DNA of 64,000 nt, from assembly GCA_964016885.1 (NCBI GenBank), contig OZ024740.1, positions 56,296,001 to 56,360,000 on the forward strand, read 5' to 3'. Shown here piece by piece: positions 24,091-50,154 of the stretch (the stretch's first letter is position 1; every line of letters starts with the position of its first letter). Under the pieces are notes generated by a model. It saw only the letters and a list, made by a program, of their open reading frames with translations. It made no database searches and was not told where the DNA came from. The position numbers and the translations under genes were made by a program. Origin of the DNA: Eledone cirrhosa. Its lineage: Eukaryota.

Positions 24091-24097
<7 letters not shown>
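23799..24097. repeat. Near-perfect palindrome, 149-bp arms, 1-nt spacer at 23948
   Basis: Arms read as reverse complements around TATATCT-T-AGATATA. One mismatch noticed. Confidence 0.95.
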
Positions 24098-24170
<73 letters not shown>

Positions 24171-24181
<11 letters not shown>

Positions 24182-24400: not shown

Positions 24401-24441
24401 TATGTCCACTGTTCTATATAGAACCTTACTTCCCTTTTCCA

Positions 24442-25180
<739 letters not shown>

Positions 25181-25647
25181 TATATATATATAAGGAACGA
25201 TTGACTTTCGTCAAATCGGACAGAGGAAACGATGTTTCCATTGGTCTTTCCAATTGCTAATACTATCTATCGGTCACAACTCCAGGTCGAAGGAGCAACG
25301 TGAAATAAAGTGTCTTGCTCAAGAACATAACTCATCGCCCGGTCCGGGAGTCGAACTCACAACCTCACGATTCTCTAACCAATCAACCAGACGCCTTTAT
25401 ATACATGCTCATTTTGGTTTAATCAATATACATAAAATATATATCGATTATGTTTCTCAACAAAAAATCCCCAATGGAGAACATTGCAACATTCTTCCTT
25501 GGGTAGATGACTAATAATTTTGAGTAGTGTGATATTTACATAGCAGACCTAACCTTACCGATGAAGAACATTATGGTCTTAAGTTGCTTATTACCCAAAT
25601 CGATAATTGGTGATTGATACACACTAAGGTGATATATATATATATAT

Positions 25648-25961
<314 letters not shown>

Positions 25962-26321
25962 GAAAGAGAGAGAGAAAGAGAGGGAGAGAGAGGGGGAGAG
26001 CGTTGACCATGTAGAAGTTATCTCCTGTCCATTCCCATTAAATCAATTAACGAGAGAGAAAGGGGTGAACACACCCACTAACAACATCACATGAAGCACA
26101 CCCAGCATTAACTTCCATTTATGTTTCGTAAACAACAAACAAACTAACGCTCGAGTCAAATTTTAGTTGAATGAGGATTATCTCCTGATCCTTAAAACGA
26201 TATAGGTCCAAGTTTAAGGACAACCTATAACTGAGTCTAGACCTTTCATGCCAAGTTTGAACCTGATTGGTTTACTGGATTTTGAGTGCATTGGTAATAA
26301 ACAGACCAACAAACAAGCAAT

Positions 26322-26406
<85 letters not shown>

Positions 26407-27768: not shown

Positions 27769-27813
27769 GCTCTGACGAATACTACGGTTACGTAAGGAAG
27801 AAACATTGTAAGC
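27769..27813 (+). ncRNA. Minimal type-I hammerhead motif (Penelope-type), stem II partly decayed
   Basis: gcu-CUGACGA-(uacg guua cgua hairpin)-GAAAC-auu-GUA-agc. Followed by CAATAAAAATCTTTTGATGT, similar to the tail of the 47585 copy. Confidence 0.65.
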
Positions 27814-27856
27814 CAATAAAAATCTTTTGATGTTGTAGACGCTCTTGTGTTCTTTA

Positions 27857-28095
<239 letters not shown>

Positions 28096-28539
28096 GTGTG
28101 TATATATATATATGTGTGGGTGTGTGTATATGCTTATGTATAGATACACACACACATATCTATCTATATATATATTCCGCGCGTACGCGTGCCCTACAAA
28201 ATAGTTCAGTTGTACGCTCACGATAAACAACAGAGGCCATGTATTGTCCCTCTCCGACTAAAATCTTTTTCCCCTCGGAAAACACCCAGTTGATGGATGC
28301 GAAATCCGAAATATAAGGACAATTAAATCACTTCCAATGTAACTCTATCTCGTGTTATTCTTTTTACACCTTTGTGTACGTTCTACTACACCATCTACGT
28401 CTCATTCTACATTTCCTCTTACATCTCTCTCATTACCACATGATTCTGTTACCCGGAAATTGACCCATATGCATTGTTGAGGCTTCCAAAACGCCCAATT
28501 TTAATATTCCACAATGCTTCAAGCAAACTTCAACACTCT

Positions 28540-28583
<44 letters not shown>

Positions 28584-28936
28584 TATAGATATATGTGTCT
28601 GTGTGTACAGATATAAAGCGGGAAAACAAATATATCTATAATTGTATGTGTGCACACCCCTGCCGAAATTTGAAGTAATCAGAAAGCAATAGAAAAGTCG
28701 ATGCTCTTGCTCATTACAAATATTTTGTGTCTACTATCAGGGACGTTGGAAAAGGGGGAAGGGGCAGATGGGTAGTACTCCCCCCCCCCCAATAATTATA
28801 TTTTTCTCCCCAAACTACTAAAACGCACATCTATTTGTATATGCGCTACAATTTATCTACATGTTATGTAGAGACAGGTGGGAGAGATAGATATAGATAT
28901 CGAGAGGGGGGAGAGTTTGGAGTTAATTGATATAGA

Positions 28937-31900
28937 TTTCTATTTATTTGCCACCAGGGCATCAAAGATTGGGACAAATACAAAGGGGGGAGTTTACATG
29001 CATTTAAAAAGACGTGTAAAAAACATATAACAAATTAAATTTAATAATCAATGTCCTCAATAGGGAGGGGCGTTGACATGGGTCGCACACACCCCCGAGA
29101 AAATGTGCAACCCTCCTCTTCAGGAGCACAAAGAGCGGGTGCTTCCTTCCTCTTCTCATTCTTCTCCTCTCTCACCTACAGGCTGATATAGAGAGAAGGC
29201 CCATTCACTCGGGCCATTCTCGCTACTTTCACCCATCTTTCATAAAACTTGCTGGGGTCGAGCACCTCTCTCTCCATTCTGATCCTTCTTCTAAAGTGGT
29301 ACTTGAAAAAAAAGACCAGTTGTTGGCCGGAGAGAAAGGTGTCTGACCTCAGCCCTTTCAACCTTGTCCACCATACAACTTCTTTCAACATGGCTATCAC
29401 ACAGAGGAAAACCGTCTCTCCTTCGTTTTTGAAAGGGGAGGCGGTTTGATCGTGACAATGTTCTCGGTGGTCAACCGGATTGGTCCCACCCGCGACAGTA
29501 GTCGTTCTACATAGCCCCACAGGTCAGCAAGGCCCGGACAGTGTACGAATGCGTGTGCGACGGTTTCCTCGTCACGCACTTATCTTGGACAGATCTTCTT
29601 CGAGGGGTCCCTACCCGGGCGCCCGTGTCTGTAGAGCTTGTCCCGAACTGGTAGAGCTCCTCGGTAACATTGCCAAGCCAGGGACTTTTGGAAGTTGTCC
29701 ATCGGTCCCGGGCCAAACGTCTTACCGAACAGACTGGCCAGCTCGTCTTCCTCCATGCCCAGAGCCTCTCCGAGAGCGTCGTCGCACTTACTGCACACCA
29801 ACCCTCTATAGAATGTTGAGGTTGAGTCTCCACTGATTGCCGGATCCGTTAGCCAGAGGGCCGTGAGCGCCTGGGCACATTCAATGTGCCAGACGCCCAC
29901 TTTTCTCGGTCTTTGCTTGACCCAGGATTGCAGCTCGGTGAGTGAGACGAGTCTCGGAAAGGCTCGCCTCACAAACAGGGCCCACACTGATCGGTGAGGA
30001 ATACCTGGAGGTGCCGTAGCCTTAATGCGTGTCTACGCATCGTCAGCCACGGCATCCCCAGCCTCCGTTCGAAGGGTGGTGACAGCAGATGGATCTTCTC
30101 ACCAAAGCAGCCCGCTTCTTCCAAAGAAATCGGAAGAGCGCGCGCTCCATTTTTGCGAGTGTTTTCTCTGGGCAAGGCACGACGGTCAAGCGGTAGTAGA
30201 TGACGGACGCTATATAAGCGTTCGCCACCTCCGCTCGACCTTTCAGGGATAGTTTGCACTCGGCCCACTTCTGGGCGAGTGCAAAGACCTTGCCCGTTAC
30301 CTCGTCCCAGTTTTTCTCCACTTGGAGGTCCAGTCCGAACCAGACCCAGAGCAGCTTCACCGGTCCCTCCGTCCAGCGTCCGACGGTGCAGTCGGAGGGC
30401 ATCGTTATGCCCCTCCACGTCCCGAGTTGCAAACCGACGGACTTGTCCCGGTTCAGCTTGGCTCCTGTGAACCTTTCATATTCCTCACGTAAGGTGCCGA
30501 TCTGCCCGATTTCCGAGGCGCACGACACCTTTACTGTCACGTCATCGGCGTAGGCCGACACCGCTTTCCGCAATCCCGGTTCAAAGCGGATGCCCTGCAA
30601 CAGCTCCAGCTTCCGCAGTAGTGGCTCGAGAGCCAGCACATACAGGAGGGAGGAGAGAGGGCATCCCTGTCGAATGGATCGCGTGATTTGGAACGGCTCC
30701 GAGAGGTAGCCGTTCACCTTGACCCTCGAGCAGGTGTTGCTGCTGTGCATTGCAGCAATCCAGCCCCTGAAAATGGGTCCGAAGCCTGCCGCCGCGAGCA
30801 CCGCATCCAGATACCGATGGTCAACCCTATCGAACGCCTTAGATTGATCCAAGTTGATCAGGGCCCCACCAAAGCCGGGTTCGTTCCTTACCCTCTCTAC
30901 GATGTATCGCATGAGGTGGAGGTTGTCGTGTATGGACCTGGACGGGATTGCGCATGTCTGCGCTTCTACCACCAGGTTCCCGGCGACAAGCGCCAACCTC
31001 TTCGCTAACACCTTGGCCAAAATCTTTAACACTGTGTTTAGCCGAGTTATGGGCCTGAAGTTATCTATGTCATCCCCCTTGTTCTCGTCCTTCCTCACCA
31101 GCGTGACTACGCCCTTGGTCACAGAACTGGGAATTCTCCCGTTCTGTTGCCAGTTGCAGTAGACCGCCACGAGGAGACCGGAGAACAAGCCCGGCATCGC
31201 TACATAAATTTCGTATGGTAGACCATCGAGACCCGGAGATTTGCGTTTGCCGCATTGGCTCAGCCCTTCCCCTATTTCAGCGGCTGAAATCGGCCTCTCG
31301 CAGGTCTTCGCCTCCCCGTCCGAGAGCCGCGCCAGACCCTCGAGGTATGGACCGAAATCCATGGCCCCCACCCGGCCCGCCGCCCCTCCCGAACAGTCGT
31401 GCAAAGCGCCGTTGAAAGGCCGCGCTCATCCGCTCAGGTTCAAGGATCACGCGTCCATACTGGTCCTTCAAAGACCGAATCGTCGACTTGTTTCCACTTT
31501 TTGCCTTTGTCACTCGGGCCCAGCTAACAGCTTTGGCTCCCTCGTTACCCAGAGCACGTATTTTACTCCTGACAACGCAGCCCTCGTGCTTCACATCAAA
31601 GAAATTGTCTAGGGCCGTTCTTGACGCCAGCACGCCGGCCACGTTGCCACTCCTAATCGCCTCTTCTACTCTATTTGTTAATTCCCTTTCAGTTCTATTC
31701 CTATCTGATGCTAATTCCCGACTAAAACCTATCGATTCTATTCTAATTTCTCTCTTGAGAGAGCCCCACCAGCTGCTGTTGACAATTGCCCCCGTCAAAC
31801 GCTGCTTAACTAGTGTGCTAATCCGCTTACTGTAAGCTTTGTTTGTCGGTAAAGACAAGTTTAGCTTCCAGTAACCGGGTCCCTGTCTATGAGTTCTATC

Positions 31901-33619
31901 AAGGTTGACCACTCCGGTCACCAACTTGTGATCCGAATAGTCAACCATGAACATTCGTGGACAGCTTAATATGTCCCTATCCTTATTTCTAACTAGGAAC
32001 CTATCTAGGTACGACCTAGATGTTCCGCTGAGATTAGTCAACGTCCACAGTGGCACAGTCGGAAAATCTAGTCGATTAATCGTTTGAGGCTGTTACACCC
32101 CCCTCTATCGGGACATGCCCATACATAGTCCCAACGTGCATCCAGGATACCATTCCAGTCCCCCACTAAAAGCAAGAAGTGAGACGTTCCCAGGAAATTC
32201 TCCAGGCGTCGGAAGAAGTCCGGTCGCGGTGTCCCAGATGGGGAATGCGCTGCCACCAGCCTGAAAGCTCCACCTTCACCACTGCCAACGTCTAAATCCA
32301 CCAATCGACCCTCCGGGTCCAGGTGTACCTTCTGTGTGGCAAGACCCAGGTATTTTCGCAGCAGAACGACAACCCCACCCCCACCCCTTGGCTGACAGAG
32401 AGATGCGTAGATCTCAAAGTCGTCGAAGATGGGGGCCAGTTGGCGCTCGCTGCTGATCCTGGACTCGCAAATAACCATTACATCCACTCTGTACGACCTG
32501 AGGTCATTTAAGAGTTTGCCCTGTTTCCAGGACATCCCCAGGCCGCGTGCATTCACACATCCAACTCTTATATTGGCCATGTTGGTGCTGAGGAGTTAAA
32601 AAGGAAGAGGAAAGGAAATTAGTTACCTCTTCGTCTCCTGGGACCAGGCTGCACAATTTCCATGGGGGTGTTGGAAGGGTTGTTTGGTGAGGTGGTGGTT
32701 TGTGGTGGGGTGAGGACATCAGTGTGTGGTGGGATTAGGGTGTTTGGTGGGGTGTAGGGGTGGTGAAACATCTCAATAGGACGTTGTTAAGTGGTTTGGT
32801 GCAGTTGGTCCCCGCATGCATTGGATGGTTCTTTTTCAAAGTTACATAGGTTTCCGTTGGGACCCAAATCATCATTAGGTGCGGTTTGTTCGCTGCGTAG
32901 ATGAAAGTGATCCCTTCGGTTTCCACCGAAGGGTTATTTTCTATTGCTTTCATCAACGTTTTATTGTTCTTGTTAATGTATGTATAGAGTTTTTGTTGTG
33001 TTGTGTTTGTTTTTGTTTGTTGTTCTTGTGCGTGTTTGCGTTTTGTAGTATGTCTTATGTTTTGGGGAGGGGTGTTTTTTTTTGTTTGTGATGTTTGTTC
33101 TGTTTGTGCTGGTGGTTGTGTGTTTGTAGCATTTTTGTTAATGTGGTGCCTTTTTTTTTCCTTTTCACCTGTTGAAAGAGTTCTACCTCGTCGTCACTGT
33201 ATGACGTTGATACGGAGTCCTCTTCCGTGTTGTTGGGGAGGGGTATATTTTGGGGTTTTGTTGTGGTTGCTTTTGTATTTGTTTTAGGTGGGGAGGGGTT
33301 GGGTGGAACAGTGTTTTGTGTTGTTATTTTTCCGTGTTGTTGTGGTTGTTGTTGTTGTTGTTGTTGTGGTGGTGGTGGTGGTGGTGGTGGTGGTGGTGGT
33401 GGTGGTGGTGGTGGTGGTGGTTGTGTTGTTGTGTTCGGGGTTGGCAGAAGAGCCTTTTTTTTTTGACTCGTTAATTGAGGACAGGCAGCCCTCAGGTGAC
33501 CCCTGTTTAAGCAGTGGTGACATGACGGTCGCCTTCCCTCCACTGAAATGTTTATATAAGTTAGCCCGTCCAGAGGCACGCGTTGTGGGATATTCGCTAT
33601 TCGTTCTGGGCTCATTGGT
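28937..33619 (-). mobile_element. L1/Tx1-clade LINE, ~4.7 kb, 5'-truncated in ORF1, ORF2 broken by stops and frameshifts
   Basis: ORF1 zinc knuckle CHHCLNRGHLRAAC (33055-33615). APE endonuclease (MANIRVGCVNARGL...GDWN...LDRFL...SDHKLV, 32580-31900). RT (PGLDG, FRPI, DQSKAFDRVDH, RQGCPLS, AYADD; 30043-31404). C-terminal CxxC...H...C. TSD GTTAATTGATATAGA at 28922-28936 and 33620-33634. Confidence 0.95.
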
Positions 33620-34320
33620 GTTAATTGATATAGAGAGTGTGATTGTGAGAGTATGTTGTATGGTTGATGTAGGGAAGGGGAGAGTTTGGTGGTAATGAAT
33701 AGGGGGAGAGGATTGATAGTGATATGTTATTGAAAGATATAGAGAGGGGGACAGTTTGGTAGTGATAGATGGAGTGAGAAGGAATGAGAGAGAGTGTTGA
33801 ATGGTAGATATAAGGAGGGGGATAGTGTGGTGCTAATTGATATAGAGAGCGGGAGATTGGATGTCTATTGATATAGAGAGGGCGAGGTTTAATGTTTATT
33901 GATATAGGGAGGGGGATTGGTAGAGAGTTCCGTGTAGTAGATATAGAGAGGGGGAGAGTTTGGTTTTTATTGATATAAAGAGAAAGATTGGAAGATAGTT
34001 CTATGTAGCAGATATAGAGAGGGGGAGAATTTGGTGATTGTAGATATACAGAGCAGGATAATAGGAGAGTGCCGTATAGTAGATATAGAGAGTGTGAGAG
34101 TTTAAGAGGGATTGATATACAGAGGGGGGGTTGGGAGAGCTAAGTGTAGATATTTATAGAAAGGGAAACAGTGTATTAGTCTTAGATATAGAGAGTGGGA
34201 TAAGAGAGGCAGTGTCATGGTAGATATAGAGAGGTGTGGAGTTTGGTTTTAGCAGATACAAAGAGGGGGATCACAAGAGAGTTTTGTGTGATAAACATAG
34301 AGTGGAGGAGAGTTTGGTGG
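33620..34320. repeat. Degenerate purine-rich minisatellite, ~30-bp units containing GATATAGAGAGGGG
   Basis: About 20 recurrences of (A/T)GATATAGA. Continues on the other side of the Tx1-like insertion (28880-28936). Confidence 0.75.
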
Positions 34321-34321
34321 C

Positions 34322-34645
34322 ACTCTCGGGTCCCAAATAATAGGAGGGGTGGTAATAAATGGGGGGGATCAGTAATTGTATAGTGAACGTTCGTAAATAT
34401 GGGATTTCTTGTTATGTTCTTCTTTTGTCATATATAATGTTGTTTTAATGTAAAATAAAATTATTAGATTCTCCAGCTGCTGTATCAATATGAATCACTT
34501 GCAATAAAATTTCGCCGGAGATAGATTAGCAAAATTTAATAAGCGGGTGCGGGATGGGGTGGAAATAAAAGCCGAGGTAGTGGTGGAATAAATGTGACAA
34601 ATAAATAAGCGGGCGGTGGGGGACAATTATTCAAGACCTAAGAGT
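34322..34645. mobile_element. Possible pogo/Tigger-type MITE
   Basis: Imperfect TIRs ACTCTCGGGTCCCAAATAA / TTATTCAAGACCTAAGAGT. Confidence 0.45.
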
Positions 34646-34845
34646 AAGTGAACTATTGACGGACGTAAGAATGAAAACTCAATACCGAAGTCGAGTTTAA
34701 ATATTCATTTGTTATGACTAAGCCTTGTAACTGTGAAATCACACCTGCGTAATCAAAGGATCATCAGACAAGACTGGTGATTCTGTAAGTGCGCAGGTGA
34801 AACTTTAGAGTAACAAACCTCACCAATAGCCATAATAAATTGAAA

Positions 34846-34887
<42 letters not shown>

Positions 34888-34889
<2 letters not shown>

Positions 34890-35285
34890 GATGGCTACAA
34901 ACTCTGCTAAGAGTATTGCAATCGTTTATCAGATTCAGATGTGTGACGCTCGGATATGGCTTTTCAAGCCTGCTAGAGACTTGCACTCCTTCGCACACTG
35001 ACGACAGCTATAAATCTCCCTGGCCTGAGGTCTTGCATCAGGTTGCCTGTGAATCCTCACAATACCGTGGAGATGATAGTTCTCTGGTTCTCTTTCAACA
35101 TGGCTGAGACTGTGGCTCCTGAAACCAGATTTGCTCAAGCAAAATATTTCCACACTCAGGGCACTTCTATTCAATAGAGAGACCGATCGTTTTGAGAGAT
35201 ACACCAGGGCATTGCTTACGCACATCCCGTTTGATTGTCTCATGCGCTATGCGTCTGTCCTCAAAATTATGGACCCCATCGTTCA
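34888..35285 (-). mobile_element. RTE-clade LINE 3' remnant
   Basis: Encodes C2H2 remnants CLSKSGFRSHSLSH and CRQCAKECKSLAGLKSHIR, like the C-terminus of the RTE at 40.2-43.7 kb. Ends ...AGCCATCATG(TA)n. Confidence 0.75.
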
Positions 35286-36481
35286 CCATTCCGCGTTAAG
35301 TTTCTCTTTCAATATATATAACAAAGAAAGTGTGGTAAGATACCAGATGGACAATAACGCATCAGAATACACGATACTTAGAATAGTAGAGTGGGTAATA
35401 GGAAAAGAGTCAGGACCCCGACGGCTGAACTCTATATAGTAGCGGGGGAACTGAGGGGCTATGCCAATAGTTATGTTTGTACCCCAAATTACCAAAACAC
35501 ACATTTATTTGAATATGCACTTCAATTTATGTACATGTTACGTTTATCGCATACCGAAGTTTTCTGATCATTTTAGCGTACAAAGAGCTAAACTAATCAC
35601 TACAACTAAATTGTCTAAATTTTCCCCCACCCACCAATTCAAAAATGCTTCCACCGCCCTGACTGTTAGCTGGATATTACACATCCGAATTGTAACTAAA
35701 ACATTCGCCACTCCTCATGTAATGAAGGGAAACTGTTTGAGATTCTATATTTAAGATATTATATTTAAGACGTTATAATTGTTTATAATACTTTTATAAA
35801 TTCTATAGTAATATTTCAAATTCTAATCCTTGATTGTTGTTGGTTAGTGGGTTACGACTACTGGAATGGGATTATGAAGTGTATGTGTATATATATATTT
35901 TCAAAAGATTTTAAAGATGAATATTGTGTAAATGTATATATATACGTAAATGCACCCGCTGTTGCTTAAATTATTATACATTCATGTTACATAGAACTGC
36001 CGAACGTACACAATACATAGAAATGAACTCAACATTTACAAAGAAAATCATGTACTTTAACTTTTAACAATGAAAATATTAAACCCACTTTAAGAAGATG
36101 CTACGATTTATACTTGAATAAATATTAATAGTTGAAGTGTTAAACATGCAAACAGAAGTGAAATACTCGTCATATACTTTAACATATTTTCAGATTTACT
36201 AAGTTTTATTTTACCATAGTTCAGTTCCATAGATGTATCACCATATCTCACATATATAAGCACCACTCGAGCTTTAAGAAAAGATACCATGAAAAGCCAT
36301 TCAAGGATTTCACTAGAATACCCTTCCTCTCAACGTCCTACGAAAGGTATTTAAAAAGACGTTCCAGTTAGCCCCCAGCAACTATATGACAACAGTTGAG
36401 CTTCAAGCCATGATTCTACATATCGGTTCATTACAGGAAACGTTATAAAGGACTTACTGAAGCATTATTTCATGTACTTTA

Positions 36482-36538
<57 letters not shown>

Positions 36539-36588
36539 CTGTAAAGAGGGGGATGTTGATACGTCTGTGTGTCTGTGTGTGTGTGTGT

Positions 36589-36630
<42 letters not shown>

Positions 36631-36714
36631 GTGCTTCCTGCAAGAGGGAGTGGATATATGGGGTGTTTGCGTTTATATATATGCATATATATTTGCATAG
36701 TAATGTATATATAC

Positions 36715-36749
<35 letters not shown>

Positions 36750-36765
36750 ATATAGACATGCACAT

Positions 36766-36798
<33 letters not shown>

Positions 36799-36883
36799 GA
36801 TATATATATATGTATACATATATACATATATACATATATATATATACATATATATATTCATATAAATAAATATATACAAATAA

Positions 36884-36950
<67 letters not shown>

Positions 36951-37003
36951 ACAAAGGAATTGTGGTAAGGAACCAAATGGACCTTAGGGTAGTAGAGTGG
37001 GAA

Positions 37004-37092
37004 ATAGGAAAAACTATGACCCGACGGCAGAGCTCAAGAAATAGCCGTCGAAACGGCTTGAGCTCTGCCGTCGGGGTCATACTTTTTCCTAT
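37004..37092. repeat. Fold-back hairpin (~35-bp GC-rich arms) terminating a truncated repeat copy
   Basis: ATAGGAAAAACTATGACCCGACGGCAGAGCTCAAG ... CTTGAGCTCTGCCGTCGGGGTCATACTTTTTCCTAT. Confidence 0.85.
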
Positions 37093-37137
37093 ATATATAT
37101 ATATATACATATATTCATATAAATAATATATACAAAT

Positions 37138-37324
37138 AATTGTTTCTACCTTTGGCACAAGGCCAGCAATTATCCAGTACATTACTGGTACTTTATTTTA
37201 TCGACCCCGCAAGGATGAAAGGCAAAGTCAACCTCGGCGGGATTTGAACTCAGATCGTAAAGGGACGTAACTATGCTGGAAAGCATGGCGTCCGACCCTC
37301 TACCGATACTGCCAATCCACCGCC
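37138..37324 (-). mobile_element. Full-length tRNA-derived SINE
   Basis: Reverse complement of 15392-15574. Flanked by AATATATACAAATAAT duplication. Confidence 0.92.
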
Positions 37325-37340
37325 TAATATATACAAATAA

Positions 37341-37721
<381 letters not shown>

Positions 37722-38276
37722 AATAGTATATATACATACATATGAATACAAGTACTCACGCACGCACTCACAGAAAAACACAGAGAAACACACACATGTA
37801 TATATACATATATATTTAAATATGTATGTGCATGTGTAGGTGTTGTTTTATGTATAACCGTACACGATATGATATTCAAAAATTAACAGTAAAAGCACTC
37901 GTTGCCTGTAAGTATAATTTCTGTTCCCAATGAATGAGGATGACTGTATCTTCAATTTTGCTGCTGCTATAGTCTTCGTGATATACTCACCTTCATACTT
38001 ACATACATTCATGCATGCATACATACATAAGTACACTCATACATATATATCATACGTATATATCATAAGTATGTTTGTATGTGTGTGTACATATATATAT
38101 ATGAAAGTGTATATGTATATACACTTTCATATATATATATGTACACACACATACAAACAGCCGCACGCACACACATCCACACACACACACACATATACAT
38201 ATATATGTGTGTGTTAAATGAAACAAACAAGACACAGGAGGCAATTTTACATAGATCTCTCTCTCTCTCTCTAAAT

Positions 38277-38320
<44 letters not shown>

Positions 38321-38554
38321 AATATGTAATACATATATATTATATTACTGAGATTTCTCTATGTTTCTACTCTGCCACTAATTAGTAATTGAAACTTAGA
38401 GAACCAACACAGGTATATATTTTTTTACTTATATCTGCACACAAACACAGAAAGGCACAACGATATACATCCATATATACACACGTAGAAGCATTCATAC
38501 ATACATATATACATGCGTACATAGGTACACACATACATATATACATACCCACAG

Positions 38555-38968
38555 GGTGGCTGCCAACTCGTTTTCGAGTACGGCCACTACTTTATATCCA
38601 TGTAGGAGAACCCCTACCGATGCGCTGAACGAGTGTGGCTTTTTAGTCCAGCCAGCGACTTGAAAACTCTGGTACAAACACTACACTTGTGACAATTATT
38701 GACACATAGTGCTGGGCCTATGGTACCATGTGCCGACAAGTGCAGAGTGATCTCCAGATATAAAGCAATGCCTGTGACGTGAAGCTTTTATAGTGAGCAA
38801 AGGCACCTCACAAAGCCAGTCCCACTCTCTTAACCAAGATGATATTTACCAAAAAGAAGAACAAGTCAACATCATTGGATACCATCAGGGTTGCAGGTGT
38901 TATATCAGAGTTTTCCTTCTCCTAGAATTCTGCCTTGACAAAGGCTAAGGGATCATCTCTCCCGGTGT
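38555..38968 (-). mobile_element. Non-autonomous RTE-derived element (family A)
   Basis: Near-identical to 44628-45026 and to the reverse complement of 46184-46596. 3' end is homologous to the last zinc finger of the RTE LINE (GTGTGGCTTTTTAGTCCAGCCAG vs ATGTGGCTTTTTAGCCCAGCCAA at about 40182). Confidence 0.8.
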
Positions 38969-39024
38969 TATATCAGGGTTTTCCTTCATACATACCCACA
39001 TACATACTTACATGCATATACACG

Positions 39025-39056
<32 letters not shown>

Positions 39057-39144
39057 CACGTACATACACACATACATACATACATACATACATACCCACA
39101 TACATACATACATGCATATACCCGTACATACATACATACATACA

Positions 39145-39176
<32 letters not shown>

Positions 39177-39893
39177 CACGTACATACACACATACATAAA
39201 TACATACATACATATATACATACATACATACATACATACATACATACATACATACATACATACATACATACATACATACATACATACATACATACTAACT
39301 GCCTCAATACAAACTTGAGAAGCTAGGCTTCATAGGAACAGAAAGAACACAACTAGTTAGGAACAGTAAAAATATGTAAAACATTCCAGAAATGTTGCAT
39401 CTAATAACTGCATATACACATGTACAGATGCAAAGCATATACATATGCACACATACAACTCAAAACATACACATCCACACATACAATAACATCCATATCT
39501 ACACATGCATGCATACGTAGTCTACCTAGTTGATGTTGTGTAAATTCCAATGAGAGAGTCTTGTGTCTATGTTAGAAACCGACTCTCTCTTTATTAGGAA
39601 AAAATGTGTGAAATTATAAAACCAGAAGAACATACATACATACATCTTTAATATTGTAATGCCATCTGCTGGACAGCTACCTTCCACTACTGTGCATGCC
39701 TTCTTTTCCCTGTCCCATATCATTATATCTGGTCTTTTATACTTGTATGTATGTATGTATGCATGTATGTATGTATGTATGTATGTATGTATGTATGTAT
39801 GTATGTATGTATATATATACATACATACATGATGGCTGCCCCCTCGTTATCGAGTATGGCCATTGCACGAGGAGAAAGAAAAAGAAAAAAAAG

Positions 39894-39927
<34 letters not shown>

Positions 39928-39951
39928 AAAATAAAATAAAAAAAAAAAGAA

Positions 39952-39984
<33 letters not shown>

Positions 39985-40152
39985 CATACACATATACACA
40001 CATATACACACACACATACATTAATAACAATAATAATAATAACAATCATAACAACAATAATAATGACAACAACAATAATAATATACATATACATATATAT
40101 ATACACACACACGCACACACATAAGCATATCTACACACACACACACACACAC

Positions 40153-43100
40153 GCGATAGCAACTAACAGCGCTGAGATCGAATGTGGCTTTTTAGCCCAG
40201 CCAATGATCTAAAATGTCTTGCACAGAGTCGGCAACCAAAACATTCACTGGGAATAGTCGGCTGTGGTTGGAGTTCGTGTACTTTTGCATGTCGCTTGAG
40301 CCCTCCTGCTGATTTACATTCTCTACCACATGTTTGGCAAGCATGATGAGTAGCATCTCAACAGCAGCCTGGTAGTCAACCACTGGTCTTACTTTATGAG
40401 TGCGAAGATGACTTTCGAGTCCAGCTTTGCTTAGGCAGAGTCTCGCACATACGCTGCATGTCAGCACCATAGGAGGACCCTCGCCGTCTGGAAGTGCAAC
40501 AGCAATGCCCTTCCTCGCATCCCGCTTTACTTTCTCGTATGCGATTCGAGATGCCTCAAAGGCAACTTTTCCCTCATATACAGTCTTTCTCCATTTATTA
40601 CGATCAGCAGCAATATTCTCCCATGTATCAGCAGAGATGTTAGCGTCTTTCAGAGAGGCTTTCAAGGAATCTTTATACCTCTTTTTTGGTTTATGTGGCG
40701 GTCGTTTTCCTTTAACCAACTCTCCATAAAAGAGTTGTTTTGGTATTCTAGAATCCTTCATCCTGGCAAGGTGACCACTCCAACGGAGTCGTTGCTTCAG
40801 CACAAGAGCTTCTATACTGTCACACATAGAGCTTTCCAAAATCTCGACATCACTGATGTGGTCCCTCCAGTGAACGCCATGGATCCGTCTGAGACACATC
40901 TGATGGAAACGCTCCAATTGCTTAAGGTGATGTCGATATGTGACCCAGGTCTCGCAGGCATAAAGAAGACAAGAGAGCACACATGCCCTGTACACCTTTA
41001 CCTTTGTCCTCCTGCATATATCTCGCCGACCCCAGAGTCGCCTTTCTAGCTTTCTGAAAGCACCACTTGCTTTCCTAATCCTAAGTGAGATTTCACTGTC
41101 AAGGTTACTGCATCGATTGACAGTGCTTCCCAGGTAGACAAACTGATCAACCATTCCAAGTCGTTTGCCATACACATAGATGTTTAGTTCAGTGTACTGC
41201 TTACCAGGGGCAGGTTGGTACATGACGACGGTTTTCTTGAGACTGACAGTCAGACCTAGGGCAGTGCAAGCGTCAGAAAATGTATTCAAAATGTGTTGCA
41301 TATCACTCTCTGTGTGCGCTACAAGATCGCAATCATCTGCATACAAGAGGTCTCTTATGATTGATGTAAATACCTTTGTCTTCGCAGCAAAGCGCCTGAT
41401 GTTAAATATGCTGCCTGAGGTTCGATATCGGATGTAAACACCATGCTCACAATTCCTGAATGCAATACAGAAAACCATTGCAAAGTATATGGCAAACAGG
41501 GTCGGTGCTGGAATATCCCCCCGTTTCACTCCATTTTTTACTGAGATAGGCTCCGACATGTTACCCCCGACATTAACCCAAGCCTTCATGTCGTCATGGA
41601 AAGACCCAACTAAAGCAAGGAACTTATCAGGGCAACCAAGTTTCTGGAGAACCTTCCATAATGCATCTCTGTTAACAGTATCGAAAGCTTTTGTCAGATC
41701 GACAAAAACCTGATACAGATCCAAACCTTGTTCCATGCACTTCTCCTGGAGCTGTCTAGCTGAGAAGATCATATCAGTAGTGCCGCGTCCAGCACGAAAA
41801 CCAGATTGACTTTCAGGAAGAACACAATCTGCAATGTGTGTCAGCAGACGGTCCAGAAGCACCCTACATAAAACTTTCCCTACGACAGAAAGCAATGATA
41901 TACCTCTGTAGTTCCCACAATCGTTCCTGTTACCCTTTCCCTTGTACAAGACCACCATTACTGCATCTCTCCAGTCCTCAGGTACGGATTCATTAGCCCA
42001 TATCCTGCCAAACAAAGAGTAAAGATGTTGCAGGAGTCTCTCGCCACCATATTGTAGGAGCTCAGCATGTATGCCATCCATACCTGGAGATCTTCCACTG
42101 TTCAGCTTCGAAATAGCCACTGCAACCTTCACAAGCGTCGGAGGTTCTGCGAGAGCTACTTTCACAGGACTTTCTGGAATGAGATTGAGGAAATCTTCAC
42201 TGACAACAGACGGCTCATTCAAAAGATCATCAAAGTGATCTCGCCACCTTCGTAGAAGTCCTTGTGAGTCACGAAGAAGTTATTTGCAATCCTTGCTGCG
42301 AAGCGGTGTCACCAGAGAAGAAGACGGTCCATAAACCTCACGCAAGAGACTGTACAACAGCTTTGTGTTATTGGAATCAGACGCAGTTTGTATCTCACCA
42401 GCCTTCTCACTCCACCACTGATCCTTCATCTGAGAAAGACTCCGCCTAACACGTGATTTTACATCCCTGAGTTCCTCATGCAACGTATTCCTCTCCTGTG
42501 GTTTTGCCGTCAAGTAGCGTGACAGAGCACGCCTCTTATCAGCCAACAAGTCTTCTATGTGTACATCATTCTCATCAAACCAGTCCTGATGTTTCCTCTG
42601 CGCCAATCCCAGAACACGCCTGCCTACGTCATAAACCGACTTTTTAAGGGTCGGCCAATCCTCACCAAGATCTGCAGCCTGCATCTCTTCTTCCAATGTC
42701 CTCTTCACATTTTTATCCTTAAGACGAGCAGCATTCAATCTTTTGGGCAGGGCAACACCAGGAGCCCGGATTTTACGTTTAGTGATTAGTTTCACTTTTG
42801 CGCGTACCAGGCGGTGGTCCGTCCAGCACTCAGCTCCACGAAGAACACGAACACTCTGCACATCCTGTCTGTCACGCATCCTGACTAGGACGTAGTCCAA
42901 AAGATGCCATTCCTTAGATGCAGGATGCATCCATGTGGTCTTGAATTTGTTCTTTTGTTGGAACATGGTGTTGGTAACACACAGATCCAGCTCCTCACAC
43001 ATCTGAAGCAGGAGCATACCATTGCTGTTACACTTTCCCACCCCATGCCTTCCGATTACATTCCATGTGTTAAAATCCCTACCCACTCTAGCATTAAAGT

Positions 43101-43715
43101 CACCAAGCACGATGACTTTGTCTGCCTGAGGGATATTTCTTAAAACACCTTTCAAGGCATGGTAAAAGGACACCTTTTCCTCATCGACAGAACTCATAGT
43201 TGGAGCATACACACTCACCAGGGTAGCATATCTTCCCTTGTCCAGCGGAACTCTCATGGACATAAGACGCTCACTAATCCCTACTGGGAATTCTTCTAAT
43301 TTGTTCACAAGCACAGTCTTAACAGCAAATCCTACCCCAGCCTCTCTTCTGGTTCCTTCATCTCTTCCTTTCCAGAAGAATGTATATTCTCCACGAAATT
43401 CCGTAAGATGACCATCTCCAGCTAGCCTCGTCTCAGATAAAGCCACGATGTCAAGATCGTAACATCGAAGCTCCTTTGTAACAAGAGCGGTCCTTCGTTC
43501 AGGACGCCCCAAGGAATCCCTGTCAAGCAGCGTTCGTACGTTCCGGCAGCCAAGACTAAATGCCTTGTTTGGCTCTATTACAATGGCAGGATGACGAGCG
43601 GGCCCAGGCTGTGATAACCTGGGGCCCCTGCCCTTATTGCCAATGATCTTTTTTGTTCCAGAACCTAAATTGCCAATTATCTCTTTTATACTGTTCTGGA
43701 ACATCATTGAATTGG
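40153..43715 (-). mobile_element. RTE-clade (BovB-like) LINE, near-intact single ORF
   Basis: APE endonuclease ORF 43707-42280 (LSETR, GDFNARVG, LDYVL, TDHRLV) continues in the same frame after one TAA into RT ORF 42222-40192 (DLTKAFD, LYADD, YLGS). Three C-terminal C2H2 fingers, with a frameshift near 40345. (TG)n tail. Confidence 0.96.
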
Positions 43716-43744
43716 AAAAAAAAAAAAAAAAAAAAGTAATAATA

Positions 43745-43775
<31 letters not shown>

Positions 43776-43800
43776 TAGTACACTATTAATAATTATTAAT

Positions 43801-44085
43801 GCACTCGTGCAATGCCTGTGCGTGACGAATATTTTTAAAGTGAGGAAAGACTGTGCACTGAGCCAATCCCACTCTCTGAGCGACAGTAGCTATAACCCGA
43901 AAAGAAGAAAAGATCAACATCATCGGTAACTACTGAGCCGAAGGTTTTATGTCTGAGTTAATCCAGTTTCCTGAGATGCCTTCTCCTAGAAGAATGCCCT
44001 GACAAGGGCTAGGGGTTCTTCACTCCCAGTGGTTTAACTGCGCGATCGGGCATCCAGCCCGATTATTTCTATGTCCCCGCGCGCG
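43801..44085 (-). mobile_element. Non-autonomous RTE-related element (family C), interrupted; its other part is at 39830-39873
   Basis: The uninterrupted relative at 62692-63010 joins GATGGCTGCCCCCTCGTTATCGAGTATGGCCATTGCA to AATGCCTGTGCGTGA... through only a short AT-rich linker. Confidence 0.7.
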
Positions 44086-44627
44086 CAAAAAAAAAAATCA
44101 CTTATTGACACTTATACGTACGACACACACACGCGCATACATATGCGCGCACACAGCAACACTCATACATACAAACAAACACACACACGCTACTCTACTC
44201 ACTTACACACACACACATATATATATATATTACAGTCATTACTGATACAAGATTACAAGATTATGTCAACTGTTGACTTTCAAGAGTTTGTATAGTTGAA
44301 GCCGATCGTACTACAGTCCAGTATTATTATAATTGCTTTACAGCATAGAGTCACGGCCCTCCACGCTCTGAGCTCAAATCCCGCCGAGGTCAACCTTGCC
44401 TTTCATCCCCACGGAGTCAACAAAAGAGAGTACCAGTGATGCGCTGGCCAGTCGCTGGATCCGTGCCAAAAGCAGAACAATTATTATTAAAGTTGTTTTC
44501 TTAAGGCCCGGTCGCTGGAGATGGTGATGGCGGCGGCGGTAGTGGTGGTGGTGGCAGTTGATGTTGTTGTTGTGTTGTGTGCGTGTGTGTGTGTGTTTTG
44601 TTATTTTGAGTTTTTACATACATACAT

Positions 44628-45026
44628 GGTGGCTGCCAACTCGTTTTCGAGTACGGCCACTACTTTATATCCATGTATGAGAACCCCTACCGATGCGCTG
44701 AACGAGTGTGACTTTTAAGTCCAGCCAGCGACTTGAAAACTCTGGTACAAACACTACACTTGTGACAATTATTGACTCAGTGCAGGGCCCATGGTACCAT
44801 GTGACGACAAGTGCAGAGAGATCTCCAGATACAAAGCAATGCTTGTGCCGTGAAGCTTTTATAGTGAGCAAAGGCAATGCACAAAGCCAGTCCCACTCTC
44901 TTAACCAAGATGATATTTACCAAAAAGAAGAACGAGTCAACATCATTGGATACCATCAGGGTTGCAGGTGTTATATCAGAGTTTTCCTTCTCCTAGAATT
45001 CTGCGTTGACAAAGGCTAAGGGGTCA
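44628..45026 (-). mobile_element. Non-autonomous RTE-derived element (family A)
   Basis: Near-identical to 38555-38968. Confidence 0.8.
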
Positions 45027-45104
45027 TACATACATACATACATACATACATACATACATACATACATACATACATACATACATACATACATACATACATA
45101 CATA

Positions 45105-45468
45105 CAAGTATAAAAGACCAGATATAATGATATGGGACAGGGAAAAGAAGGCATGCACAGTAGTGGAAGGTAGCTGTCCAGCAGATGGCATTACAATATT
45201 TAAGATGAGCGAAAAGGAGAATATCTATGCAGAACTAATGAGGAATCTGCAGATACTCCACTCTGACTGTACCTTCAGATTTATACCTGGGATTATTGGG
45301 GTACGGGGTGCATTAGTAACTGCCCACTACAAATCTTGAGAAGCTGGGCTTCAAAGAATCAGAAAGAACACAACTAGTTAGGAAATTACTGGTACAATCC
45401 ATTAATTGGACAGTAAAAATATGTAAAGCATTCCAAAACTTCTGCATGTAATAACTGCATATACACAA
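45105..45468 (+). mobile_element. R4/Dong-like LINE 3' fragment (restriction-like endonuclease region)
   Basis: KRPDIMIWDREKKACTVVEGSCPAD... is homologous to NRPDIVVWDHTLKTCSGVEISCPLD at 61.7 kb. Related pieces at 39295-39425 (+) and 39648-39745 (-). Confidence 0.8.
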
Positions 45469-45704
45469 CGTTAAGGGAATTTCAACTTTCCGGCCTCCTA
45501 TCGCTTTATTCTATAATATATATATATATGTATGTATCTTGTTATACTTGGGGAGGGTCATATTGTTATAATATTGCCAGAAATAATAACAGAACACACT
45601 CACTGTTTGATTTGTGTTGGTTTCGGCTTCTATATCTTTCATATTCCCATAGTTAATTTATTTGGCAATCAATGTTCATCATTGATTGACCAGTGGTTAA
45701 ATAC

Positions 45705-45751
<47 letters not shown>

Positions 45752-45853
45752 ATCAAAGTTCTTTCGTTGCACATCTGCAACATCATCAGTGGTACTATTA
45801 TGTTTCCTCCCATTGTATTGTAATGTCTACGTCATTTTTATTCAATTTATATG

Positions 45854-46596
<743 letters not shown>

Positions 46597-46597
46597 A

Positions 46598-46655
<58 letters not shown>

Positions 46656-46695
46656 AGAGTAAAACAAAGAATCCTTTAATACATCAAAAGTTTTT

Positions 46696-46740
46696 ATTAG
46701 CCGACAATGTTTCGTCCTATTAAGGACTCATCAGGGCAAT
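46696..46740 (-). ncRNA. Minimal type-I hammerhead ribozyme, canonical core
   Basis: Exact reverse complement of 47585-47629. Confidence 0.85.
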
Positions 46741-47223
46741 CGAAACAACAAGAGGTAATTTCGGCAGATACAAGCCAGAAACTCTGAAGAATATGGAGTT
46801 TACATACACTAATGTCTTACAAAGATATACGATAATAAAAATGAAGATAAAAATAATAAAATTATAATAACTAAGGATGTAGATAACATTAAGAACCATA
46901 TTACAAATATAGTCCAAAGTCACCAACTTAAATCTAAACAAATTTGGTTATATAGAGCAGGAATTATATATAACACAGTATAATACATTATAATAATAAT
47001 ATATCTATACCAACACTGAAATTCCAAATCAAAAATCAAAAGGTACAATATATACTGTTTATTATTTATTATAAGTGTTTCTTGTAATTATTGCCTCATG
47101 TATATTGGGTAGATGTATTAGCATTATTTTCACTATTACCATGCTTATTTTTGATATTTTTGATGTTCAAACTTCCAATAGGGCTTAATTTCTGTGTAAT
47201 AGAAAATAGATATGTGTATTGTA

Positions 47224-47257
<34 letters not shown>

Positions 47258-47584
47258 ACATATATACATGTATATATTGTACCTTTTGATTTTTGATTTG
47301 GAATTTCAGTGTTGGTATAGATATATTATTATTATAATGTATTATACTGTGTTATATATAATTCCTGCTCTATATAACCAAATTTGTTTAGATTTAAGTT
47401 GGTGACTTTGGACTATATTTGTAATATGGTTCTTAATGTTATCTACATCCTTAGTTATTATAATTTTATTATTTTTATCTTCATTTTTATTATCGTATAT
47501 CTTTGTAAGACATTAGTGTATGTAAACTCCATATTCTTCAGAGTTTCTGGCTTGTATCTGCCGAAATTACCTCTTGTTGTTTTG

Positions 47585-47629
47585 ATTGCCCTGATGAGTC
47601 CTTAATAGGACGAAACATTGTCGGCTAAT
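47585..47629 (+). ncRNA. Minimal type-I hammerhead ribozyme, canonical core
   Basis: auugcc-CUGAUGA-GUCCU-uaau-AGGAC-GAAAC-auu-GUC-ggcuaau. Stem I gcc/ggc, 5-bp stem II, 2-bp stem III, GUC triplet (predicted cut after 47622). Confidence 0.85.
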
Positions 47630-47961
47630 AAAAACTTTTGATGTATTAAAGGATTCTTTGTTTTACTCTCTTAATTTTTCGGCTCTGCTTAACTGCATTG
47701 AGCTATACCTTTTACTGTCATTTCTATAATACGAAGAGGGTGTTTGACTCAAACACGCTCCAGTATTCTAATCCTTATATATATATATATATACATTTGT
47801 GTATATACATTTGTGAACATTATTTTCCCAATTTGTAGAAAGCTTATAATGAAACGATCGTTTGGAAAGAGAGATGTATTTTAATTATGTCTCATATAAA
47901 ATAATACAACTGGCTATCCGCAAAATACGTATAGTTAGCACCCCAAACCTTTCTTATATCG

Positions 47962-48077
47962 AGGATGAAAGGCAAAGCTAACCTCGGCGGGATTTGAACT
48001 CAGAATGTAAAGGACCGTAACTATATGTTGCAAGGCATTTTGCCCGACGCTCTACCGATGCTGCCAATCCACCGCCC
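47962..48077 (-). mobile_element. SINE 5' half
   Basis: Reverse complement of the SINE head with A and B boxes. Confidence 0.85.
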
Positions 48078-50154
48078 TATTGTGTGTTTAATAATGTATA
48101 TTGTTGTTGTGTGTGTATGTCTGTTTTTTCGTGAATTGCATATGAAATATATGAAAGTTGACTACCCACATTTTTGAGGGACGAATACAGGGGAATAGGG
48201 CCAGAGGTTGACTGAAAAGGAGATGTACAGGTGATATTAAGAAATGGACAGGAAGGAGTTAGCGGAATGTACAGCAATGCAAGAGAGAGGAAAAGATGGA
48301 GAGTGCTGGTCCATAGGTCCATGAACCTCCGACCCTCAGATATGAGGACGGGATGAGAAGGAAGGATATGAAATTATGAATATATTCAATAAAAGAAACA
48401 TTACCATTCGTCTGAATCCGAGCATATCTCGTTATTAGCAAAAGAACTGGAAGAGAGAAAAAAAAGGAATAACAATAAAACCATTTTCCTAAATAATTAT
48501 TTTTGATATAGTTAGAAATTGGTGGGTGTGAGAATTACCCATTATATTGGCCCCAGTATATCATTTGTACTTTATTTTACCGACTTTGTACCCATGAAAG
48601 CAAAGTTGATCTCGGCGGAATTTCAACTCAGAACGCAATTAGCTCTAACTAAAAACTGCAATGCTATTCTGCCAATCGCCACATTCATTTTCCTAAGTAA
48701 TAGAAAAACAAAGATATGCTTGAAAATATTCCAAAGTGTAATGAATTATAAAATCACTGAAGTTAAGATGAGCAATCAATAGCAATCATGTCAGCTTGAA
48801 ATGACCTTAAAGCAAAGTTATTACAGACACAGAGAGGCTTCTCCTTATTAGACGCCCAATAAATATTTCAAATTTTCTCTGCAACCCCAATGAGTTGTTG
48901 TTGCTGTTGCTAGAATTCATGTTGTTTAGCCCTAGGTCAGTTTTATTCAAACAGACGTATGGTCAGTGGCATTCCAGTAGTTAGTATGTGGTATTCTATC
49001 CACACTTAGTAGGATGTTATACAATGTAAAGTGTATGCTGTAAGAGAGAATTGGTTGCTATTTAAAGTCCTCCGTATATAGCCTATCTACGTACAGCTAA
49101 ATCACATAAATGAAATAGCATTGATTGAGTATAATTATCCATATATGATATAAATATTTATATGGTAGGGTAGAGCCAGGTTAGATGCTATATGGTATTT
49201 TATTCAATATGCCAAACCTATATGATAAGAAACAAATGTAATTATTAAAACCGTCTTGCTTATATTTATTCACGTTTTTCCTGAATCATAAGAATGAGGC
49301 AACAGCTATGACAAGTTTCCAGGCCTCCAAAACTAGTGAGGAAAAAGAAGGAAGAAAGGATGAAAGAAATGCAGGTATCCTCAAACAGGAGGCCTGGTTC
49401 GAATTCTTGCAGCAGAACGGATTCTACTGAAGGCATCTAAATAGCAGGTGTTTGGGCAAACCAGATGATGTAATAAGATTAACACTCATGTAAGCTACAG
49501 AAAACTTTGAACTCAGAACGCAAGGAGCTGGAAGAAATGGTGTCTCTTCCGGTGTTCTATCAACTCTATAATTCCACCACCTTGGACTGGTAGTTTATTT
49601 TATTGACGCGATAAATTATAATTATAAGCGTGTATCATAACAAAAACGTGTGCATTTTGCATAGGTGTTTGATACAATATAGATATTTACGGCCTCTACT
49701 TTGTTGTATTGCATTACTACATTTCTGTTGATTTCAGGGCGAAAGGGTGAGGGGGAAGAACATACTGAATATACTTGCTTGAATAATACCTCAACTAGGA
49801 GACAGACACTGTAGTTAGATAACCATAAGCTGTATTTGTGAAACAGACAATTATTGAGCGTTAAATCTTAAATCATTAAAGACTGTTGAGAAATTCCATA
49901 ATGCCTTCTGGAAAATCGGTATAGAAATATGGATACAAATATAAGTTATTGTCTATAAATTACCTACTGTCATATACAACACTGAATATTACGTATTTCA
50001 GTGATAATTCAAATTGTTATCTATACTATTCTTAATTTCTCATAACGGACGGTGCTTCTGTCCAAGATATGCTGCAAAAGAAAACTCCCAAAAGAGAGTT
50101 ACAGTGGTTTAATAATGGAGAAGACAGGAAAACAATATTAAGACAATAACCTAC

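What the first reader, a model, noticed from the sequence alone, without database searches (positions are those of the whole stretch)
46652..47673. Paired intact hammerhead ribozymes in a near-perfect 404-bp inverted repeat inside the PAS gene intron
Seen: each arm carries gcc-CUGAUGA-GUCCU(uaau)AGGAC-GAAAC-auu-GUC-ggc followed by AATAAA. The arms differ at about one base, so the structure is young, and no coding capacity is present. Established: minimal type-I hammerheads with very short helix III occur in Penelope-like terminal repeats, can cleave as dimers, and such repeats are often inverted. Inference: a transcript from either strand contains one sense ribozyme plus its full antisense. 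In the host minus-strand pre-mRNA the antisense arm is made first and could sequester the ribozyme at 46696-46740 in a 400-bp duplex. This would be a self-masking ribozyme cassette, or a non-autonomous ribozyme-bearing retroelement.
Basis: partly seen in the sequence, partly recalled or inferred. Interest (0 to 1): 0.75.

Follow-up and report, generated by a model that had tools for sequence, protein, structure and literature searches.

The report
Two-armed Penelope transposon fragment with hammerheads
This inverted repeat is a truncated, back-to-back copy of a young Penelope-type jumping gene lying in a host intron, and its two hammerhead-ribozyme motifs are likely a by-product of one RNA being copied from both sides of a DNA cut rather than a purpose-built switch.

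Summary
In detail: 404-nt arms with one mismatch, each with an intact minimal type-I hammerhead, inside a 28.7-kb intron of a bHLH-PAS gene. It is not a stand-alone cassette. That family has 1,018 exact hammerhead copies in the genome, intact 897-aa ORFs whose predicted fold matches telomerase best, and (TA)n targets. Opposite-strand hammerhead pairs from truncated Penelope elements are published (PMC4209133); 28 of 78 sampled loci have one. Antisense-first masking is predicted (71 kcal/mol) but follows from the geometry of any such insertion, and the lone ribozyme is predicted not to form helix III. More interesting: copies end at two fixed sites 103 nt apart; all 36 two-armed loci scored use one of each, and five short arms stop exactly at the other site. 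That points to both target strands priming on one RNA. The scan found the same end rule before on other DNA of this genome (e1-10307541, e1-10355689). No RNA data were available; cleavage is untested.

The parts
46602..46651 (.). (TA)n target microsatellite, left flank
   Evidence: no target-site duplication can be read inside the microsatellite
46652..47055 (-). Short arm: inverted, 5'-truncated 3' end of the element, ending at fixed site A (no tail)
46700..46737 (-). Minimal type-I hammerhead motif, sense in the host pre-mRNA; predicted cut 46703/46702
47056..47776 (+). Long arm: last about 620 nt of the element's 3' UTR/pLTR plus tail, ending at fixed site B; 98.6% identical over 721 nt to the pLTR upstream of an intact ORF (L071)
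47056..47269 (+). The 214-nt 'spacer': element 3' UTR present only in the long arm; junction at 47055/47056 without microhomology
47588..47625 (+). Minimal type-I hammerhead motif; predicted cut after C47622; 1,018 exact genomic copies
47627..47632 (+). AATAAA just 3' of helix I; present in 14 of 15 aligned variants, AGTAAA in the sister family; function untested
47674..47776 (+). 103-nt tail between end sites A and B; in full elements it leads on to the ORF; holds predicted hairpins with weak covariation
47777..47793 (.). (TA)n target microsatellite, right flank
48405..48446 (-). Host bHLH-PAS exon upstream of the insertion (5' splice site GT at 48404)
19680..48404 (-). Host intron, 28,725 nt, phase 2, holding the insertion
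19573..19679 (-). Host PAS-B exon downstream of the intron

Best explanation
The inverted repeat is a 1.1-kb, doubly 5'-truncated insertion of a young Hydra-clade Penelope-like retrotransposon into an intronic (TA)n tract, likely made when both ends of the cut DNA primed reverse transcription on one element RNA at two fixed internal sites, so the paired hammerheads are likely a by-product. Shown: the parent is a 4.84-kb unit (897-aa ORF, 1.9-kb 3' UTR, hammerhead, site A, 103-nt tail, site B). The arms are joined at their truncated 5' ends, one stopping at A and one at B, each fused to (TA)n. Inferred: the element's endonuclease would cut both strands of the (TA)n; one end would prime at A and the other at B on the same RNA; the B copy would either stop at A or displace the A copy; the two cDNAs would then be joined. 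The hammerhead is under selection in the parent element and likely cleaves only as a dimer or with protein help. In the host pre-mRNA it is predicted to be buried in a 404-bp duplex, leave with the intron and have no role.
For: Parent element with intact ORFs at 93-100% aa identity; the Hydra motifs are present and conserved in 88 aligned proteins (PMC8557442 section 11); the 8 best Foldseek rows of the model are telomerase RTs. 110 of 114 ends abut TA runs; 36 of 36 two-armed loci among 78 scored carry one A and one B end, none AA or BB (about 7e-12 if ends were chosen independently). Five B arms begin at the first base after site A. Hammerhead 97% versus upstream UTR 63% identity in 21 copies; core intact in 51 of 57 pLTR copies from ORF-selected loci; 135 of 135 cells paired with one compensatory pair. 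In vitro, a Poseidon element nicks and extends both strands and starts at two internal sites that bound the tail (PMC11167929). A second, unrelated inverted hammerhead pair lies in the same intron.
Against: One shared RNA is not proven: arm-to-arm distance was below the distance to the nearest other locus in only 12 of 36 two-armed loci, equal in 5 and larger in 19; two RNAs on an asymmetric dimer could give the same A/B rule. PMC11167929 saw no difference in start site between the two strands. Pfam and PDB sequence searches did not name the ORF (profile search only E=0.028 to a retron RT), and the endonuclease rests on sequence motifs alone. The conservation figures come from copies anchored on a detected hammerhead, and the compensatory change is one event in three related sequences. 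Sampling was by exact hammerhead match on one contig.
Confidence: 0.8

Rival explanations
1. Same element and same by-product status, but the inverted arm arises by fold-back self-priming or template jumping, or from two separate RNAs, rather than by twin priming on one RNA.
For: Self-priming was proposed from palindromic junctions in rotifer Penelope elements (PMC3846280, passages). A few loci here are near-perfect fold-backs (L143; L079; the 23799-24097 pair with 1 nt between arms). The shared-template test was not decisive.
Against: Tail-only B arms share no sequence with their A arm, so they cannot be fold-back copies of it. Fold-back gives no reason for the second arm to stop at the other fixed site in 36 of 36 loci. 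In most loci the two arms break off at different 5' points.
Confidence: 0.25
2. Self-masking ribozyme cassette: the antisense arm is kept because it stops the sense hammerhead from cutting the host pre-mRNA, or gates that cut as a regulatory switch.
For: Geometry and folding agree: the antisense arm is transcribed first and forcing the hammerhead fold costs 71 kcal/mol. The insertion is 628 nt from a 5' splice site. Selection could in principle spare masked intronic insertions.
Against: 28 of 78 sampled loci have the same paired layout with arbitrary arm lengths. The copy is 99-100% identical to dispersed copies, so it is recent. Helix III has pairing probability 0.00 in the lone arm, and metazoan minimal hammerheads did not cleave as monomers (PMC4209133), so there may be nothing to mask. 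42 of 78 sampled loci were scored single-armed, unmasked, with the ribozyme intact.
Confidence: 0.05
3. Non-autonomous ribozyme retroelement (retrozyme or foldback-type unit) that moves as this 1-kb inverted structure.
For: Non-coding, hammerhead-bearing, high copy number; animal retrozymes are argued to derive from pLTRs (bioRxiv 10.64898/2026.07.22.740005, abstract and introduction).
Against: No fixed unit: 5' ends scatter over 5 kb of the parent and the sequence runs straight into the RT ORF in longer copies. No head-to-tail array of a short monomer was seen for this family among the loci fetched.
Confidence: 0.03

Closest known systems
Hydra clade of Penelope-like elements, including Hydra-1_Obim from Octopus bimaculoides (Craig et al. 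2021, PMC8557442)
   Same: Single ORF with RT then C-terminal endonuclease; RW(K/R), DKT, CxCX5C, CxxC and CxH motifs, no CCHH; (TA)n targets; hammerhead near the 3' end with a short palindromic helix III; 5'-truncated inverted copy at the 5' end.
   Different: A different family: its hammerhead differs from the one listed for Hydra-1_Obim; unit 4.84 kb versus generally under 3 kb; 897 aa with a low-confidence insert at about 490-627 absent from most homologs; 1.9-kb 3' UTR; tail 103 nt versus the 30-40 bp quoted for Penelope-like elements; still amplifying, with intact ORFs.
[quoted passage not shown]
   Same: Short helix I, G10.1-C11.1 pair, palindromic helix III suited to dimers; dual motifs 100-700 bp apart on opposite strands ascribed to truncated elements.
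   Different: Here helix II is 5 bp, there is no extra base between A9 and G10.1, helix III has 2 bp and a 3-nt loop with a central mismatch in the dimer, and the motif is highly uniform across copies; activity untested.
Poseidon element PAc of Anolis, in vitro (Frangieh et al. 2024, PMC11167929)
   Same: Two internal start sites that bound the tail, AT-rich targets, little homology between start site and target.
   Different: Other clade; there the sites lie inside the ORF and no strand bias of start site was seen; here both sites lie upstream of the ORF, 103 nt apart, and are used one per end.
LINE-1 twin priming (recalled from memory, no call)
   Same: Both target strands prime on one RNA, giving an inverted 5' part.
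   Different: In LINE-1 the second primer lands at variable places and the two segments barely overlap; here both starts are fixed and the arms usually overlap by hundreds of bases.

Membership tests
Penelope-like elements (EN+) | Telomerase-related RT in a single ORF | tested here: met
   897-aa ORF with invariant D266 and YRDD; model pLDDT 82.7; best Foldseek rows 1-8 and best VIA row (Z 14.3, rmsd 7.8, 324 aligned, tied within 1 with four other RT rows) are telomerases
Penelope-like elements (EN+) | C-terminal GIY-YIG endonuclease | tested here: inconclusive
   IVY-x-TYIG, R793, E852, N865 conserved in 82-86 of 88 aligned proteins; no Pfam hit; the domain folded alone gave pLDDT 30
Penelope-like elements (EN+) | pLTRs from partial tandems, inverted 5'-truncated copy, tail at one end | tested here: met
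Hydra clade | RWK and DKT motifs | tested here: met
   RWR at 38-40 (K in 43, R in 32 of 88 rows), DKT at 129-131
Hydra clade | CxCX5C linker, CxxC and CxH around E and N, no CCHH between GIY and YIG | tested here: met
   C748/C750/C756, C846/C849, C874/H876; one cysteine only between IVY and YIG
Hydra clade | (TA)n insertion preference | tested here: met
   110 of 114 ends
Hydra clade | Hammerhead near the 3' end | tested here: met
Hydra clade | Placement in the published RT phylogeny | not tested
   No tree built; published Hydra proteins compared by eye only
Hydra clade | Generally shorter than 3 kb (typical, not defining) | tested here: not met
   Unit 4,840 nt
Type-I hammerhead ribozyme | Conserved core and three helices | tested here: met
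   Core invariant in 15 chosen variants, 135 of 135 cells paired; intact in 51 of 57 copies; no Rfam hit at gathering score
Type-I hammerhead ribozyme | Self-cleavage after C17 | not testable with these tools
   Needs in vitro assay or raw RNA reads
Naiad clade | N-terminal endonuclease, no canonical hammerhead | tested here: not met
   Endonuclease motifs are C-terminal and a hammerhead is present
Non-LTR retrozyme | Non-coding short monomer in head-to-tail arrays | tested here: not met
   Sequence continues into an RT ORF; no short tandem monomer in the loci fetched

The most novel reading that the evidence does not exclude
Inverted Penelope insertions are made by fixed-site twin priming: a dimeric RT-endonuclease cuts both strands of a (TA)n target and each DNA end primes at its own fixed site (A or B) on one RNA, the downstream copy stalling at or displacing the upstream one. 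This one rule would explain the one-sided tail, the inverted pLTRs and the opposite-strand hammerhead pairs, and would replace the self-priming model. This active family offers about a thousand natural products and intact ORFs to test it.
Probability: 0.55. Interest if true: 0.55.

Novelty: new member of a known kind. Interest (0 to 1): 0.3.

Why it matters
As a locus it is ordinary: one of hundreds of inverted Penelope fragments, a layout in print since 2014. Its value is as a specimen. How Penelope-like elements, the sister group of telomerase, build their inverted ends is still open, and this family shows a strict one-of-each end rule (36 of 36) with arms that stop exactly at the partner site, which makes single-RNA twin priming directly testable. 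It also shows that Hydra elements are young and abundant in an octopus-like genome and seed introns with long near-perfect double-stranded RNA.

Tried and rejected
Rfam at gathering score: 0 hits in the window. Pfam on the element ORF and 6 homologs, and PDB sequence search: nothing informative. The ESM Atlas gave no result. The endonuclease domain folded alone gave an unusable model; no GIY-YIG chain was among the 50 VIA rows, which the RT domain filled. No RNA holder listed; the three runs found are one sample and behave as DNA (contigs cross introns), so they say nothing on expression, cleavage or editing, and contigs break at the repeat so no empty allele could be scored. Shared-template test inconclusive. 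Hairpins near sites A and B: predicted, but the covariation term is unfavourable (+0.54) and z-scores are 0.4 to -1.5. Naiad and selenocysteine reading rejected: endonuclease C-terminal, intact ORFs open without internal stops. Retrozyme reading rejected (see rivals). Literature searches for a published one-of-each end rule or twin priming in Penelope elements and for antisense-masked intronic hammerheads listed nothing on point; only listings were seen, and subscription papers, including the older Penelope papers that first described the tail, are outside the library.

Full report
Observation. The two arms are at 46652-47055 and 47270-47673, 404 nt each, 214 nt apart, with one difference at 47583/46742. 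Each carries a minimal type-I hammerhead motif (47588-47625 on +, 46700-46737 on -), with the predicted cut after C47622 and AATAAA one base after helix I. Rfam finds nothing in the window at gathering score. The 38-mer occurs 1,018 times in the genome (510 forward, 508 reverse), the reversed control 0 times. The host gene is a minus-strand bHLH-PAS gene: its closest stored protein, named HIF-1-alpha-like from Octopus by its source, has HLH and PAS domains and maps to six exons in the window. The insertion lies in a 28,725-nt phase-2 intron, 48404..19680, 628 nt from the 5' splice site.

What the sequence is. A DNA search with the right arm scored 40 of 1,783 candidates and returned 40 full-length matches (two are the window's own arms) at 99-100% identity, many as outward-facing pairs. 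A protein search with that ORF scored 114 of 30,755 candidates and found intact copies. Six of 16 fetched regions (L071-L073, L075-L077) hold an open 915-codon frame, 897 aa from the first Met, and L074 a 916-codon one. The unit is 4,840 nt: ORF, 1,885 nt of 3' UTR to the hammerhead, end site A, a 103-nt tail, end site B, then the next ORF start. The window's long arm (47056-47776) is 98.6% identical over 721 nt to the pLTR upstream of the intact ORF in L071. The insertion is therefore 46652-47776, flanked by (TA)n on both sides, with a blunt junction at 47055/47056.

Family. A model built on 88 proteins (mean pLDDT 82.7) matches telomerase RTs in the eight best Foldseek rows and the best VIA row (Z 14.3, rmsd 7.8, 324 aligned; other RTs tie within 1). 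The features that Craig et al. give for the Hydra clade (PMC8557442, section 11) are present: RW(K/R), DKT, CxCX5C, CxxC and CxH, no CCHH, and (TA)n targets. The endonuclease assignment rests on motifs; Pfam and PDB sequence searches were blank and the isolated domain did not fold. No tree was built. The published octopus family Hydra-1_Obim is 2.5 kb and has a different hammerhead (supplement), so this is another, longer family.

The ribozyme. In 21 copies from ORF-selected loci the hammerhead is 97% identical to the window's, against 63% for the upstream UTR; these copies were anchored on a detected motif. Without that filter the core is intact in 51 of 57 pLTR copies covering it. In 15 hand-picked variants all 135 cells pair, one helix I pair changes on both sides in three related sequences, and 1 of 500 shuffles reaches the covariation score; this is modest but consistent support. 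The lone motif folds better into an inactive hairpin (-9.4 versus -4.9 kcal/mol), helix III has pairing probability 0.00, and two copies can form a short intermolecular helix III (-3.7 kcal/mol). This fits the report that metazoan minimal hammerheads do not cleave as monomers and cleave weakly as dimers (PMC4209133, results and discussion read) and that the Anolis one needs the element protein and is dispensable for insertion in vitro (PMC11167929, parts 1-2 of 4 read). Cleavage here is untested.

How common the layout is. The first 100 listed exact sites on contig C1 fall into 83 insertions; 78 were scored by script (60 with 6-10 kb, 18 with 1.5 kb each side, the window's own included). 36 are two-armed and 42 single; 28 have the hammerhead in both arms; 110 of 114 ends abut TA runs. 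Single calls among the 18 narrow loci may miss a distant arm. Arm lengths range from about 50 nt to nearly 5 kb. A second inverted hammerhead pair from an unrelated family with 3,878 pattern matches lies in the same intron. Cervera and de la Pena already describe dual hammerheads 100-700 bp apart on opposite strands as truncated Penelope elements.

The end rule. All 36 two-armed loci have one end at A (47673-47675) and one at B (47776-47779); none is AA or BB. With ends drawn independently at the observed 65:49 ratio this has probability about 7e-12. Of the five insertions left out of the script, four show A plus B and one has no inverted arm. Diverged subfamilies and the sister family show the same by eye (L086, L177, L180, L183, L190, L191, L195). 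Five B arms (L114, L116, L123, L125, L155) begin at the first base after site A, as expected if the B copy ran into the A primer on the same RNA; such arms share nothing with their A arm and cannot be fold-back copies. Against this, arm-to-arm distance beat the nearest other locus in only 12 of 36 cases, tied in 5 and lost in 19, although a few older loci share many rare variants between arms (L112: 28). The literature knows the tail as optional at one inverted pLTR (PMC3846280, passages; PMC8557442, passages), proposes self-priming, and shows two-strand nicking and two start sites in vitro without strand bias. Searches listed no paper on twin priming in Penelope elements. The scan itself noted the same rule on other DNA of this genome (e1-10307541, e1-10355689); I had the twin-primed reading before that look-up, and those notes are not independent support. 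Their hairpin lead tested weakly here.

Self-masking. But any transcript entering an insertion with outward-facing 3' ends reads antisense first, from either side, so no selection is needed. The copy is recent, unmasked copies are as common as paired ones, and the monomer is probably inactive. A selective filter on intronic copies cannot be excluded without annotation. No RNA run was listed and the runs laid were DNA.

Papers seen: PMC8557442 (abstract, introduction, passages, section 11, supplement tables and search hits), PMC11167929 (parts 1-2 of 4), PMC4209133 (parts 1-2 of 4), PMC3846280 (passages), bioRxiv 10.64898/2026.07.22.740005 (part 1 of 5; supplements not available). LINE-1 twin priming and the RTE label are recalled, not checked.

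Verdict. Real feature, known kind: a truncated, two-armed insertion of an undescribed, active Hydra-clade Penelope family. Interest 0.3, carried by the strict end rule rather than by this locus.

Noticed in passing
window 23799-24097: A second inverted hammerhead pair (149-nt arms, 1 nt apart) in the same intron, from another family: its pattern has 3,878 matches in the genome (control 0), many as outward-facing pairs. One arm has a mismatch in helix I. Parent element not traced.
   Followed up: partly
L083, L085, L086, L196: Sister Hydra family (about 65% aa identity over the RT part, intact 829-aa ORFs) with a longer helix II, U at the cleavage position, a compensatory helix I pair, and the same two-end layout. 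U17 variants also dominate the DNA contigs laid on 47622.
   Followed up: partly
L071 ORF residues about 490-627: Long Asn/Ser/Arg-rich insert between RT thumb and linker, low confidence in the model and absent from most homologs; resembles the N-rich inserts reported in rotifer Penelope ORFs (PMC3846280, passage).
   Followed up: partly
L032, L037, L038, L039 (C4 77.73-77.77 Mb): Four near-identical two-armed insertions spaced about 10-12 kb apart, likely a tandem segmental amplification after insertion.
   Followed up: no
L078 362-1208; L080 7943-8255: Unrelated tandem hammerhead-bearing repeats with periods of about 420 and 312 nt next to family copies; candidate retrozymes.
   Followed up: no
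window 13-15162: 15-kb array of a 20-21-nt satellite, 86-87% matches, with strong strand skew.
   Followed up: no
window 40192-43782 (-): LINE with endonuclease and RT in one frame broken by a single stop at 42280-42282; RTE-like by recall.
   Followed up: partly
window 29000-33700 (-), 60351-62117 (+): Two further decayed non-LTR retrotransposons with RT hits, the first also with an endonuclease hit.
   Followed up: partly
window 46184-46516 with 38635-38967 and 44779-45027: Dispersed 95-96% identical repeat lying just left of the (TA)n that the Penelope fragment entered.
   Followed up: no
window 17890-59958 (-): Host bHLH-PAS exons are 72-100% identical to an Octopus protein named HIF-1-alpha-like by its source; true orthology unresolved.
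   Followed up: partly
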